Assembly: GCF_044324875.1 (NCBI RefSeq)
Contig: NZ_CP172185.1
Length of the DNA: 64,000 bases
From: Escherichia coli
GTDB lineage: Bacteria; Pseudomonadota; Gammaproteobacteria; Enterobacterales; Enterobacteriaceae
Reading direction: 5' to 3' (one strand)
In this document: positions 9,001-12,000 of the stretch, one piece after another
Layout of the letters: each line of letters begins with the position of its first letter
How positions within the stretch are numbered: the first letter of the stretch is position 1
Position numbers: made by a program

Positions 9001-12000
9001 ACTGGTATTCCCTCTTCTACGCTAATTTTAGTTATGATTGCCTTGTCGGGTTTAGGATTAGCGACAACAATGATTCGACATTCAGAATTTTTATTCTTTT
9101 CGTATCTAATGTTATTAATCTGATTAAGTATTGATTGTGTCTGTTGCGTAAGTGGTGTCGAACTTATCGTTTCAATGTTATTAATAAGACTTACAAGTTG
9201 AGCCACAATTTTTGAGTAGTCTGCATTTGTATATGTAGTGTTCGTGTGGCACGCATTAATTTGTTGGAGTTGTTGTTGCGCTAAATCAAATTGTTCAGCG
9301 TTATATCCTTCTTCAGACAATGAAAAATTAATGGGTTGCTGTTCTTCCTGATTATCACAAGGCCACATCGGTGTGTCTGGTGTTTTAACATTGTCGGTAT
9401 CTGTTGTGCGGTTATAAATATCGCCGTGATATGTATTTATCATACCTGGGGTAAAGTCAATTGACATAACATTCCTTATTGTTCATCTATTTCGCTAAAT
9501 TTTTGTAAATCGGAGAATTAGAGCAGGAATGGATTTTCTTCTACGCGGAAATAAACACAATGCGCCATATCTTCCTGATATAATTACCTTTAACTTCCCT
9601 TTCATTTCCACCCGGTAATATTTGTGTATAAAAAAAGGGCAGTGATAGTATCGTAAAGGAAAACGTTAACAACTATCAAAAAGCGCTCATTTTAAAAAGT
9701 TATGATGTTCTCCGATAGTGTGTGAAGTGATATTTTTGTGATGTTTTAGATGTGTAATAATGAACCAGGTTAAAGTGTATTTAAAAATGTGTTGTATTGG
9801 CGACTGAAATCTGCCCTTTAAAAGGGGGGATAGCACTGAGACAAAGAGGCATTGCTTCTCCGATAAAATGTCAGAGAAGCATGATTGCGTGGTGATTGTC
9901 GATTGATGACTTACTGACGGATCCGTCATCATTCTCAAAGCATTAGTTAAGTTATTTGTGCTTTTTAAGGATTATCCTATCTATGATTTTCTACTCAGAA
10001 GGATAAGGCACTCACAATGCTCCTTATAGTTTACTGCTGGCATCTATTTAAAATAGCATTTGAGTCAAATAGCCCATCAAGATAGCCATACCTAATATAA
10101 CCGTCAGGAATGCAGCTATCATCGGCATTCTGAACATTGATTTAAGTAATATCACTTCCGTCAGGCTTGCGCCGGCACTGCCGATGATTAATGCCATTAA
10201 TGCTCCCAGACCCATTCCTTTTGTCATCAGAACAGATGCCAGAGGGATAACCGCCTCTGCCCGGATATACAGCGGAATACCGACAACGGCGCTCAATGGG
10301 ATGGCGAAGGGATTATCTGCCCCTGCATGAGCGGCAATCCACTCTGAGGGAATAAAGCCATAAATAAAAGAGCCTATTAATACCCCTAACAAAAGATATG
10401 GCAGTACATCTTTAAACTGTTGCAACGCATCTTTGGTGGCTAGTTTTATGGGATTAATACTTACCACAGCTTTGGTACTGCAACAGTTTACTACAGGTTT
10501 CTCAATGGCTTTAGCCGCTGGACTACAGCAACTCACTTTTATTGGCGTATATGTCGTCCCCGGCGAAGTTTTGGCTGGAGCACAACAATTTGCTGATGAG
10601 CTTTTACTGGCAATGATATGACGTTCAAATCCCAGGGAATCCAGGATAATACTGGCAAGTACGGAGACGCCGGCGGCGATAATCGCGTACAACAAGGTAA
10701 CTTTCCAGCCAAAAGTCACCCACATTAACCCGACGATAATGGGATTAAGTAATGGGGAAACAAATAAAAAAGTGAGGGTCGGACCGAACCCGGCTTTCGC
10801 TGACAACAATCCACGTAACATGGGGATTGTCGAGCAACTACAGAACGGGGTAACGGCTCCCAACAGAGCCGCCAGGAGATAGCCTCTCCCTTTTCTGGCC
10901 CCCATCATCTGCTGGATTTTATGGTCTGGCACCTTTTGTCTTATCAGGCTGACACCGGCACTAATCACTATAAACAGCAAAGAAAGCTCGACGGCGAGAA
11001 ACACAAACATCTCTGCGGCATCTTGCAGCATCGCAAGCCAACTACTCATACGTAACCTCATTGAATAAATCTATATTTCCAGAATAATCGAAATAAAATT
11101 CAGATCAAGATATTTCTGGTATTATCGAAATATCAACCAGACAAAGGGGGTGTCATATGCAGTTGGAAGAAGTTGCTAAAGCGCTGAAAGAGCTAGGTCA
11201 CCCGACCCGTTTGTTCATATTCAAACACCTGGTCAAAGCGGGGGAACAAGGTTTGCCGGTCGGTGAGTTGCAAAAGCAGCTTGGGATACCCGGCTCTACA
11301 CTCAGTCACCATATTTCAGCACTGGTATCGGTAGGGCTGGTCAAACAAAACCGTGAGAGTCGGACGCTGATGTGTGTTTCGCAATACGCAATGCTGGAAG
11401 CGATAATTGAATTCTTACGCGAGGAGTGCTGCGTAAATAGCAAAATTGCCTGATGCGCTACGCGCTACAGATTTCATGCCATATATTGAATTTGCACGGT
11501 TTTGTAGGTCGGATAAGACGCGTTAGCGTCGCATCCGACATAAACGAAGCGCACTTTACCAACTATCGGCAGTGGATATCGCCGCTTTATTTCAGGCGTT
11601 TACCCGCTTCATCAACCACTTTCTCGCCATCTTCCTTGGTGAACGCGCGTTGTTGCGCATCTGGCAGAATTTCCAGCACCACTTCTGAAGGGCGGCACAG
11701 GCGAGTTCCCAGCGGCGTCACCACAATCGGGCGATTAATCAGAATCGGGTGCTGAAGCATAAAGTCGATTAGCCGATCGTCAGTAAATTTATCTTCTGCA
11801 AGGCCCAGTTCCTCATACGGCTCGACGTTTTTACGCAACAGCGCGCGTACGGAAATCCCCATATCGGCAATGAGTTTGACCAGCTCATCGCGCGTTGGCG
11901 GTGTTTCCAGATAATAGATAATGGTCGGTTCTGTACCGCTGTTGCGGATCATCTCCAGCGTATTACGCGACGTACCGCAGGCCGGGTTGTGATAAATGGT

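What the first reader, a model, noticed from the sequence alone, without database searches (positions are those of the whole stretch)
11073..11134. Paired ~21-bp direct repeats in the divergent arsP/arsR2 promoter
Two near-identical AT-rich 21-mers (tatttccagaataatcgaaat and tatttctggtattatcgaaat) lie about 38 bp apart between the two divergent start codons. They are the obvious candidate operator for the adjacent ArsR-family repressor and would allow autoregulation together with permease control.
Basis: seen in the sequence. Interest (0 to 1): 0.35.

Follow-up and report, generated by a model that had tools for sequence, protein, structure and literature searches.

The report
Twin operators of an arsP-arsR switch
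The two AT-rich repeats are real and are very probably the DNA sites where a methylarsenite-type ArsR repressor switches off its own gene and the neighbouring efflux permease gene; this is an ordinary kind of switch, seen here in an E. coli version that no paper I could search describes.

Summary
Observation confirmed. Two copies of one element lie 37 bp apart, start to start (11073-11095 and 11110-11132, 19/23 identical), in the 107-bp gap between a PF03773 permease (ATG 11049, minus strand) and a 98-aa ArsR/SmtB gene (ATG 11157).

Each copy is itself an imperfect palindrome, ATATTTC-N10-GAAATAT, with the half-site ATCGAAAT.

- **Conservation:** a weight matrix built from orthologous loci finds the element upstream of the regulator gene in 76 of 81 loci from many gammaproteobacterial genera. 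In 56 of them the 26-mer starts 40-49 nt before the ATG. Further copies sit next to the permease gene.
- **Specificity:** in the 64-kb window only these two sites score (28-37 bits; shuffles reach 8.3 at most).
- **Known relative:** the regulator is 58% identical to SpArsR, the methylarsenite-selective repressor of Shewanella putrefaciens 200, and its Cys91/92 align with SpArsR Cys101/102. The permease is 53% identical to the Shewanella arsP. The 222-bp arsP promoter used in published SpArsR biosensors carries three copies of the motif.

The centre of each site looks like a -10 hexamer, so bound repressor would block RNA polymerase.

No binding experiment exists for the E. coli sites, and the inducer is inferred. 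This is a new member of a known kind and of modest interest.

The parts
10048..11049 (-). arsP-like permease gene (333 aa from ATG 11049; an in-frame ATG at 11061 would give 337 aa)
   Evidence: PF03773 ArsP_1, E 5.8e-53. The RefSeq start in the near-identical locus L001 corresponds to 11049. The protein is 53% identical (E 6e-116) to the arsP divergent from SpArsR in Shewanella, against 30% to the second PF03773 permease of that island.
11056..11059 (-). Shine-Dalgarno GAGG of the permease gene
   Evidence: Read from the sequence; it lies 6 nt before ATG 11049.
11072..11097 (.). Permease-proximal operator O_P: TATATTTCCAGAATAATCGAAATAAA. Arms ATTTC 11075-11079 and GAAAT 11090-11094; perfect half-site ATCGAAAT 11087-11094.
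   Evidence: Matrix score 28.1 bits (+) and 29.4 bits (-). The block is conserved across five genera. It starts 22 nt from the permease ATG, mirroring O_R.
11081..11086 (-). Predicted -10 hexamer TATTCT of the permease promoter, in the centre of O_P
   Evidence: Inferred from the sequence. It lies 16 nt downstream, on the minus strand, of the conserved TTGATC. No start-site data.
11103..11108 (-). Predicted -35 hexamer TTGATC of the permease promoter, abutting O_R
   Evidence: Its + strand form, (G/A)TCAA(G/T/C), lies just upstream of the proximal site in 22 of 38 loci with a divergent permease, including nearly all the compact ones, against 8 of 37 loci without one.
11109..11134 (.). Regulator-proximal operator O_R: GATATTTCTGGTATTATCGAAATATC. 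Arms ATTTC 11112-11116 and GAAAT 11127-11131; perfect half-site ATCGAAAT 11124-11131.
   Evidence: Matrix score 37.0 bits. The 26-mer is identical or nearly identical in Aeromonas, Citrobacter, Buttiauxella, Limnobaculum and Enterovibrio. It starts 48 nt before the ATG, inside the common 40-49 nt range.
11117..11125 (+). Predicted extended -10 TGGTATTAT of the arsR2 promoter, in the centre of O_R
   Evidence: Matrix positions 13 (A, 97%) and 17 (T, 98%) coincide with the A2 and T6 positions of a -10 hexamer. This is an inference; no start-site data.
11145..11149 (+). Shine-Dalgarno GGGGG of arsR2
   Evidence: Read from the sequence.
11157..11453 (+). arsR2: a 98-aa SpArsR-type ArsR/SmtB repressor with Cys73, Cys91 and Cys92
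   Evidence: Family hits: HTH_20 and HTH_5 and NF033788. Best solved relative: AfArsR 6J05 by sequence (E 4.7e-10) and by fold (TM 0.89). It is 58% identical to SpArsR, with C73/C91/C92 aligning to C83/C101/C102.

Best explanation
**What it is.** The 107-bp region is a compact pair of back-to-back promoters controlled by two operators of the adjacent SpArsR-type ArsR repressor (here called ArsR2). Each operator is a 20-26-bp imperfect palindrome with consensus TATATTTC-nnn-TAWTATCGAAATATA and half-site ATCGAAAT. This is the size and symmetry expected for one winged-helix ArsR/SmtB dimer.

**How the parts are arranged.**
- O_R (11109-11134) contains the predicted extended -10 (TGGTATTAT) and the start region of the arsR2 promoter. 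It also abuts the predicted -35 (TTGATC, minus strand) of the permease promoter.
- O_P (11072-11097) contains the predicted -10 (TATTCT, minus strand) and the start region of the permease promoter.
- The layout is mirror-symmetric: ATG - 22 nt - site - 11 nt - site - 22 nt - ATG.

**How it works.** Without inducer, dimers on both sites block RNA polymerase, so arsR2 is autoregulated and the permease is off. A trivalent organoarsenical, most likely methylarsenite, binds the vicinal Cys91-Cys92 pair at the C-terminal end of helix alpha5. The repressor then leaves the DNA and both genes are expressed, and the ArsP-type permease exports the compound.

**What is shown here.** The existence, non-randomness and conservation of the sites; their fixed position; their co-occurrence with the regulator and permease genes; and the orthology to SpArsR/arsP.

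**What is inferred.** Binding by ArsR2, the -10 and -35 assignments and the inducer. The centre-to-centre distance varies between lineages (37-39 bp against 48-50 bp), so I infer that the two sites act as separate operators rather than as a complex that needs a fixed phase.
For: **The repeats and their dyads:**

**Specificity:** the window holds only two sites, at 28-37 bits, against a maximum of 8.3 bits in shuffles.

**Conservation:**
- The footprint holds across genera.
- 76 of 81 loci have a site upstream of the regulator gene, and in 56 the 26-mer starts 40-49 nt before the ATG.
- The sites of at least 18 bits that lie away from the regulator gene are next to the permease or glutathione-synthase genes (L080 is the one unexplained case); I checked this by eye, not by a count.
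- The recognition helix PGSTLSHH(I/L/V) is almost invariant in all 80 orthologs, matching the conserved arms.

**Promoter reading:** the most conserved central positions fit the A2 and T6 positions of a -10 hexamer. The TTGAC-like element tracks the presence of a divergent permease.

**Link to SpArsR:**
- ArsR2 is 58% identical to SpArsR, and its cysteines align.
- The permease is 53% identical to the Shewanella arsP.
- The SpArsR-repressed, methylarsenite-induced 222-bp arsP promoter (PMC12124457) holds three sites of 17.0, 24.4 and 30.5 bits. The last starts 44 nt before the arsR ATG. No other site occurs in 8.3 kb.
- SpArsR is described as MAs(III)-specific through Cys101/Cys102 (PMC11868830; PMC13236881).

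**Structure:** the closest solved structure is AfArsR, with the CC pair aligned to its As(III) ligands Cys95/96. In the model, helix alpha5 ends at residue 92.
Against: - No binding, footprint, reporter or start-site data exist for the E. coli sequence. The -10 and -35 assignments rest on consensus and conservation only.
- The simple promoter scan proposed other hexamer pairs in the same region.
- O_P scores lower and is less conserved than O_R.
- 37 bp is 3.5 helical turns, so the two dimers would sit on opposite faces of the DNA. That argues against simple cooperative contact.
- The weight matrix was trained on the same orthologous set in which it was then counted. The window and the Shewanella W3-18-1 locus are the independent tests.
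- Cys73 is invariant in the family but has no assigned role, and only 7 of 80 loci have ars genes within 3 kb. The inducer could therefore differ from that of SpArsR.
- I could not read the SpArsR paper (PMC5653410 is not held), so I do not know which DNA its authors showed to be bound.
Confidence: 0.8

Rival explanations
1. The sites are ArsR2 operators, but the signal is not methylarsenite. The regulator might sense inorganic As(III)/Sb(III), a soft metal such as Cd, or a thiol-reactive electrophile. It could use a three-cysteine site formed by Cys91/Cys92 of one subunit and the invariant Cys73 of the other.
For: - Cys73, Cys91 and Cys92 are invariant in all orthologs.
- In the model Cys73 lies four residues before the start of alpha5 and Cys91/92 lie at its end. 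In ArsR/SmtB dimers the alpha5 helices are antiparallel (PMC11868830).
- In other genera the regulator is linked to a eukaryotic-type glutathione synthase, a GST, a MAPEG protein and an ECF sigma factor with a Cys-rich tail.
- The best NCBIfam match of the permease is the SO_0444 Cu/Zn efflux family, though far below its cut-off.
Against: - The closest characterised relative, SpArsR at 58% identity, has the same three cysteines (C83, C101, C102). It is reported to respond to MAs(III) and not to As(III).
- The E. coli protein lacks the extra C-terminal Cys that corresponds to AfArsR Cys102.
- The pair sits next to arsRBC or arsDABC in Escherichia, Citrobacter, Buttiauxella, Pantoea and Hafnia, and inside an ars island in Shewanella.
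Confidence: 0.25
2. The repeats are only duplicated promoter elements (-10-like and UP-like AT-rich sequence) or a chance AT-rich duplication, with no repressor involved.
For: The region is 31% G+C. The centres of the sites resemble -10 hexamers, and the promoter scan finds several hexamer pairs here.
Against: - The conserved arms ATTTC and GAAAT are not sigma-70 elements, and they are dyad-symmetric.
- In Vibrio the permease-side copies are near-perfect palindromes without a -10-like centre (ATTTCGATAAAAATCGAAAT).
- Copies occur one to three times per locus at variable spacing, but always with this regulator family.
- Only 1 of 2000 shuffles matches the repeat.
Confidence: 0.05
3. The sites are bound by a different protein, such as the canonical ArsR of the neighbouring arsRBC operon or a global regulator.
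For: A second ArsR gene lies 2 kb away (13368-13721). AT-rich palindromes can resemble the sites of several E. coli regulators (my own knowledge, not tested).
Against: - The matrix finds no site at the arsRBC promoter or anywhere else in the 64 kb.
- The motif follows the SpArsR-type gene in genera where no canonical arsR is nearby: 73 of 80 loci have no ars gene within 3 kb.
- In the Shewanella island the second ArsR/permease pair has no such site.
Confidence: 0.04
4. The palindromes act as RNA hairpins in the 5' leaders, as attenuators or stability elements.
For: O_R can fold into a weak hairpin if it is transcribed (-9.7 kcal/mol).
Against: - The folds are not better than shuffles (z -1.2, +0.4 and -0.25).
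- There is no Rfam match.
- The arms are A/T-only, so a hairpin would be weak.
- The sites work in either orientation relative to the genes.
Confidence: 0.02

Closest known systems
SpArsR / arsP of Shewanella putrefaciens 200 (Sput200_1227 / Sput200_1226): MAs(III)-selective ArsR repressor (Chen, Nadar and Rosen 2017; used as a biosensor in PMC12124457)
   Same: - The genes are divergent in both, and the pair is orthologous: regulator 58% identical, permease 53% identical.
- Both regulators have the same three cysteines (C83/C101/C102 = C73/C91/C92) and no AfArsR-Cys102 equivalent.
- Both intergenic regions carry the same ATTTC-N10-GAAAT motif, including a regulator-proximal site that starts 44-48 nt before the ATG.
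   Different: - The Shewanella intergenic region is 222 bp with three sites: two sites 52 bp apart on the arsP side and one on the arsR side. The E. coli region is 107 bp with two sites 37 bp apart.
- SpArsR has a 10-residue N-terminal extension.
- The Shewanella pair lies inside a larger ars island (LMW-phosphatase-type ArsC, a second arsR and permease, gapdh and an MFS gene).
- The E. coli proteins have not been tested.
AfArsR of Acidithiobacillus ferrooxidans (type 2 As(III) site; PDB 6J05)
   Same: It is the best solved relative by sequence (E 4.7e-10) and by fold (TM 0.89). The vicinal Cys pair at the end of alpha5 aligns exactly.
   Different: AfArsR uses a third ligand, Cys102, and senses As(III). 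ArsR2 ends six residues after the CC pair and has no such Cys. Identity is only 30%. I could not look up the AfArsR operator.
NdArsR / arsRM of Noviherbaspirillum denitrificans HC18 (MAs(III)-responsive)
   Same: The regulator has a C-terminal CC pair. Its promoter carries ACATTTCCAGTATTTTGAAATATC, the same ATTTC-N10-GAAAT dyad (by eye).
   Different: It is a more distant protein that controls arsM rather than arsP. The half-site is TTGAAAT rather than TCGAAAT, and it scores below 8 bits with the matrix.
Classical ArsR/SmtB operators (imperfect 12-2-12 inverted repeats that overlap promoters, as for SmtB, CzrA and R773/chromosomal ArsR; from my own knowledge)
   Same: A roughly 26-bp imperfect inverted repeat overlaps the promoter. 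The regulator is autoregulated, and derepression follows ligand binding to a homodimeric winged-helix repressor.
   Different: The sequence differs, and no site is found at the neighbouring arsRBC promoter. Here two sites serve two divergent promoters in a mirror-symmetric layout.

Membership tests
ArsR/SmtB family of winged-helix repressors | HTH_5 / HTH_20 winged-helix domain with the fold a1-a2-a3-a4(recognition)-b-b-a5 | tested here: met
   Pfam HTH_20 1.5e-14 and HTH_5 5.3e-07. NF033788 scores 61.9 bits against a cut-off of 55. The AF2 model has pLDDT 92.7 with that order of elements. The Foldseek top hits are all ArsR/SmtB proteins.
SpArsR-type (MAs(III)-selective) ArsR | Vicinal Cys pair at the C-terminal end of alpha5, aligning with SpArsR Cys101/102 and AfArsR Cys95/96 | tested here: met
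   Cys91/92 align with AfArsR Cys95/96 and with SpArsR Cys101/102. Helix alpha5 spans residues 77-92.
SpArsR-type (MAs(III)-selective) ArsR | No third ligand equivalent to AfArsR Cys102 | tested here: met
   The protein ends ...EECCVNSKIA, with no Cys after position 92. Many Vibrio orthologs do have one.
SpArsR-type (MAs(III)-selective) ArsR | Close sequence relationship to SpArsR and linkage to arsP | tested here: met
   58% identity, E 3e-41. The permease is divergent and 53% identical to the Shewanella arsP.
SpArsR-type (MAs(III)-selective) ArsR | Released from DNA, with derepression, by MAs(III) but not by As(III) | not testable with these tools
   This needs EMSA or anisotropy and reporter assays. 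It is known only for SpArsR itself (PMC11868830, PMC13236881, PMC12124457).
ArsR/SmtB-type operator | Imperfect inverted repeat of about 20-26 bp that overlaps the regulated promoter, upstream of the regulator's own gene | tested here: met
   The dyad ATATTTC-N10-GAAATAT is present. The sites lie 22 nt from each ATG, their centres resemble -10 hexamers, and their position is conserved. The overlap with the promoter is inferred, not mapped.
ArsR/SmtB-type operator | Specific binding by the cognate repressor | not testable with these tools
   There is only indirect support: co-occurrence in 76 of 81 loci, and the presence of the motif in the SpArsR-regulated arsP promoter.
ArsP (organoarsenical efflux permease, TC 2.A.119) | PF03773 fold with the conserved TPFCSCS cysteine motif | tested here: met
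   ArsP_1 E 5.8e-53. VTPFCSCSTIP is present and is conserved in the Shewanella arsP.
ArsP (organoarsenical efflux permease, TC 2.A.119) | Efflux of MAs(III)/roxarsone(III), or orthology to the characterised Campylobacter jejuni ArsP | not tested
   I did not have the C. jejuni sequence. The only NCBIfam matches are sub-threshold: SO_0444 at 109 bits against a cut-off of 300, and SaoE at 86 against 325. The transport function is therefore inferred from linkage to the SpArsR-type regulator.

The most novel reading that the evidence does not exclude
The invariant Cys73, together with the regulon seen in other gammaproteobacteria, could mean that this regulator family is not purely a methylarsenite sensor. 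That regulon includes the permease, a eukaryotic-type glutathione synthase, a GST, a MAPEG protein and an ECF sigma factor with a Cys-rich tail. The family would then control a broader response to thiol-reactive metalloids or electrophiles, through a new inter-subunit Cys73'/Cys91/Cys92 site. E. coli and more than 600 conjugative enterobacterial plasmids would carry a compact two-operator version of it.
Probability: 0.2. Interest if true: 0.5.

Novelty: new member of a known kind. Interest (0 to 1): 0.3.

Why it matters
The finding identifies an uncharacterised module as the probable counterpart of the Shewanella methylarsenite sensor and exporter. The module is absent from K-12. It is present in 2219 of 5426 complete E. 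coli genomes and on 647 plasmids of Escherichia, Salmonella and Klebsiella.

It also gives a concrete operator consensus, TATATTTC-N3-TAWTATCGAAATATA, that can be tested by EMSA. The same consensus can be used to predict the regulon in other genomes and to design compact MAs(III) biosensor promoters.

The biology is conventional repressor-operator logic, so the value is in annotation and practical use rather than in concept.

Tried and rejected
**Checks that were negative or led nowhere**
- **RNA element:** no Rfam family matches, and the leaders fold no better than shuffles.
- **Further sites in the window:** none reaches 10 bits, so there is no sign that the neighbouring arsRBC promoter shares the operator.
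- **Literature on the operator and the E. coli genes:** full-text searches for the operator strings returned only unrelated hits. The RefSeq protein accessions returned no paper. My guessed O157 locus tags returned nothing relevant. A paper on the RpoS regulon mentioned only the canonical arsR.
- **Papers not held:** the SpArsR, AfArsR and NdArsR primary papers (PMC5653410, PMC2859433, PMC8881391) could not be read. I therefore could not check which DNA fragments were shown to be bound.
- **Permease substrate:** the route through SO_0444/SaoE gave only sub-threshold family matches and general remarks on metal efflux.
- **Co-variation of regulator and operator:** I compared TCGAAAT, TGGAAAT and TAGAAAT site variants with the recognition helix. 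The helix is almost invariant, so this gave no signal.

**Caveats on the sources**
- The promoter hexamers proposed by the consensus scan are not conserved in orthologs, so I did not adopt them.
- The PDF-derived biosensor sequence has lost a few bases. I reconstructed SpArsR from it, and the reconstruction was confirmed by an exact database match.
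Full report
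**1. The observation**

The window is E. coli chromosome: dctR-slp, a yhiS-like gene, then the region of interest, then arsCBR, dinQ and gor.

Between a minus-strand PF03773 permease gene and a plus-strand 98-aa ArsR/SmtB gene lies a 107-bp, 31% G+C intergenic region, 11050-11156. It contains ATATTTCCAGAATAATCGAAATA (11073-11095) and ATATTTCTGGTATTATCGAAATA (11110-11132). These are 19/23 identical and start 37 bp apart. Only 1 of 2000 shuffles of the region gives as good a direct match.

Each copy is also an inverted repeat, with arms ATTTC and GAAAT separated by 10 nt, and each carries a perfect 8-mer ATCGAAAT on its right side. The permease most likely starts at ATG 11049. That start is preceded by GAGG and is the one annotated in RefSeq for a 97.7%-identical locus.

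The layout is then mirror-symmetric: ATG - 22 nt - 26-nt site - 11 nt - 26-nt site - 22 nt - ATG.

**2. Distribution of the gene pair**

- The pair is annotated only as 'permease' and 'ArsR/SmtB family transcription factor'.
- It occurs in 2219 of 5426 complete E. coli genomes and is absent from K-12 MG1655, where arsC is followed by a 628-bp gap and then yhiS.
- An 83%-identical copy occurs on plasmids. That copy is found in 647 PLSDB plasmids, mostly conjugative, of Escherichia, Salmonella and Klebsiella.

**3. Comparative evidence for function**

The regulator has close homologs in Aeromonas, Citrobacter, Plesiomonas, Serratia, Yersinia, Providencia, Photobacterium, Vibrio, Shewanella, Endozoicomonas and others. 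I fetched 80 species-representative loci.

- **Conserved site upstream of the regulator gene.** Reading the upstream regions directly shows the same element in nearly all loci. A 26-nt weight matrix built from them has the consensus TATATTTCTAGTATTATCGAAATATA, with the arms ATATTTC and GAAATAT perfectly complementary. 76 of 81 loci have a site of at least 18 bits within 170 nt upstream of the regulator gene. In 56 of them the 26-mer starts 40-49 nt before the ATG.
- **Independent tests of the matrix.** The window was not used in training. It has exactly two sites of at least 10 bits in 64 kb: 11072-11097 (28.1/29.4 bits) and 11109-11134 (37.0 bits). Shuffled windows reach 8.3 bits at most.
- **Footprint among close relatives.** In an alignment of the intergenic regions from E. 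coli (chromosome, plasmid and strain E69), four Aeromonas, Citrobacter, Buttiauxella and Limnobaculum, the two sites are conserved blocks. O_R is nearly invariant. The 11-nt spacer and both leaders have diverged.
- **Sites follow the permease gene.** A divergent permease is present in about 48 of the 80 loci, and these have further sites. Spacing is 37-39 bp in Escherichia, Aeromonas, Citrobacter and Buttiauxella. It is 48-50 bp in Shewanella, Photobacterium, Aliivibrio and Enterovibrio. Vibrio has three sites, spaced about 50 and about 87 bp. Where the permease lies downstream or elsewhere, the sites move with it. Sites also precede a eukaryotic-type glutathione synthase.
- **Recognition helix.** PGSTLSHH(I/L/V) is almost invariant in all orthologs.

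**4. Link to a characterised system**

The best solved relative is AfArsR (6J05), by sequence (E 4.7e-10) and by fold (TM 0.89 on a model with pLDDT 92.7). Cys91/92 of the query align with its As(III) ligands Cys95/96, but the third ligand, Cys102, has no counterpart.

The literature describes exactly this pattern for SpArsR of Shewanella putrefaciens 200. SpArsR is MAs(III)-selective and senses through Cys101/Cys102 (PMC11868830; PMC13236881).

A biosensor paper gives the parts: arsR is Sput200_1227, and the arsP promoter is the 222 bp upstream of Sput200_1226. It states that this promoter is regulated by SpArsR and shows a response to MMAs(III) much stronger than to As(III) (PMC12124457). 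Its supplement prints the sequences.

- SpArsR reconstructed from that text (105 aa, with C83, C101 and C102) is found exactly in Shewanella sp. W3-18-1.
- E. coli ArsR2 is 58% identical to it (E 3e-41), with an offset of 10 residues, so C73/C91/C92 correspond to C83/C101/C102.
- The E. coli permease is 53% identical (E 6e-116) to the divergent Shewanella arsP, including the triple-CC loop. It is only 30% identical to the second PF03773 permease of the same island.
- The native 222-bp Shewanella intergenic region holds three matrix sites of 17.0, 24.4 and 30.5 bits. The last is GATATTTCTGGTATTATCGAATTACT and starts 44 nt before the arsR ATG. Nothing else in 8.3 kb reaches 9 bits. This locus was not in the training set.
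- The MAs(III)-responsive arsRM promoter of N. denitrificans carries the same dyad by eye.

**5. Mechanism**

The central matrix positions 12-17 read TA(T/A)TAT. The two most conserved of them are A13 (97%) and T17 (98%), and they coincide with the A2 and T6 positions of a sigma-70 -10 hexamer.

- In O_R this gives TGGTATTAT (11117-11125), an extended -10. It predicts a start near 11132 and a 25-nt leader.
- On the minus strand O_P has TATTCT (11086-11081), 16 nt from TTGATC (11108-11103).
- The + strand form of that -35-like element, (G/A)TCAA(G/T/C), lies next to the proximal site in 22 of 38 loci with a divergent permease, including nearly all the compact ones. It is seen in only 8 of 37 loci without one.

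I therefore infer two back-to-back promoters, each with its -10 and start region inside its own operator, and with O_R also flanking the -35 of the permease promoter. Repressor dimers would occlude RNA polymerase, and an organoarsenical binding to Cys91/92 would release them. Because the spacing varies between lineages (3.5 against about 4.7 helical turns), a fixed-phase cooperative complex is unlikely.

All of this section is inference. The consensus scan proposed other hexamers, but these are not conserved in orthologs.

**6. Rivals**

- A chance or purely promoter origin is contradicted by the conserved dyad arms, by the multiple copies and by the palindromic Vibrio copies that lack a -10-like centre.
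- A different regulator is unlikely, because the motif follows this regulator family and is absent from the arsRBC promoter.
- An RNA role has no support.
- The live uncertainty is the inducer. Cys73 is invariant. In other genera the regulator is linked to glutathione synthase, GST, MAPEG and an ECF sigma factor. Only 7 of 80 loci have ars genes within 3 kb.

**7. Verdict**

The feature is a new, untested member of a known kind: an SpArsR-type repressor with ArsR/SmtB-type palindromic operators. I found no paper that gives this operator sequence or describes the E. coli genes, but the primary SpArsR paper could not be read.

Interest is modest. The result is useful for annotation, regulon prediction and biosensor design, but it is not surprising.

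Noticed in passing
L002 5430-6895 (E. coli plasmid pHNAH8212R); plasmid hits H16-H45: An 83%-identical copy of the permease-regulator pair, with both operator sites, is carried by 647 PLSDB plasmids: Escherichia 400, Salmonella 186, Klebsiella 32. Of these, 457 are conjugative. Many of the sampled rows are poultry isolates. In L002 the pair sits next to IS26 and a eukaryotic-type glutathione synthase. Selection by organoarsenical feed additives is a possibility I did not test.
   Followed up: partly
window 11373-11375 (Cys73 codon of arsR2); alignment of 80 orthologs: Cys73 (SpArsR Cys83) is invariant in every ortholog, although the papers I read assign sensing to Cys101/102 only. In the model it lies four residues before alpha5, and so possibly near Cys91/92 of the partner subunit.
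   Followed up: partly
L021-L041 and other Vibrio/Shewanella loci, C-termini of the regulator: Many Vibrio and Shewanella orthologs have a further Cys five residues after the CC pair (ECCxxExC), like AfArsR Cys102. They might therefore respond to inorganic As(III). The Escherichia and Aeromonas proteins lack it.
   Followed up: no
L022, L025, L026, L029, L032, L033, L037, L039-L041, L052, L055, L073 and others, downstream of the regulator: In Vibrio the regulator gene is followed by three further genes. These are an ECF-type sigma factor with a Cys-rich C-terminal tail (15 loci), a GST ending in CSDNGGCGTNCC (5 loci) and a MAPEG protein (6 loci).
   Followed up: partly
L042, L043, L072, L075, L084, L085: A eukaryotic-type glutathione synthase (PF03917/PF03199) is repeatedly linked to the permease or preceded by motif sites. 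In Shewanella it lies directly downstream of arsP.
   Followed up: partly
L006 3756-6040; L010 3862-6161: In Aeromonas australiensis and A. tecta the regulator gene is followed on the same strand by arsD and arsA, with no arsB in the 3-kb flank.
   Followed up: no
window 11451-11545: A REP-like palindromic element (gcctgatgcgctacgcgc ... gtaggtcggataagacgcgttagcgtcgcatccgac) fills the gap between the convergent stops of arsR2 and arsC. A weak terminator-like hairpin lies at 11571-11586.
   Followed up: no
window 10480-10620 (permease residues about 150-195): The permease has a loop with three CC pairs (NCCAPAK, SCCSPAAK, NCCSTK). The Shewanella arsP also has three CC pairs there, although the loop sequence differs.
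   Followed up: no
L086 (K-12 MG1655 3650662-3651291): K-12 lacks the pair: arsC is followed by a 628-bp gap and then the IS5-disrupted yhiS pseudogene. The window has an intact 407-aa yhiS-like ORF (8244-9467) with no Pfam hit.
   Followed up: partly
Nd-ars gBlock in PMC12124457 Text S3: The MAs(III)-responsive arsRM promoter of Noviherbaspirillum denitrificans contains ACATTTCCAGTATTTTGAAATATC. The ATTTC-N10-GAAAT dyad may therefore be shared by a wider group of C-terminal-CC ArsRs.
   Followed up: no
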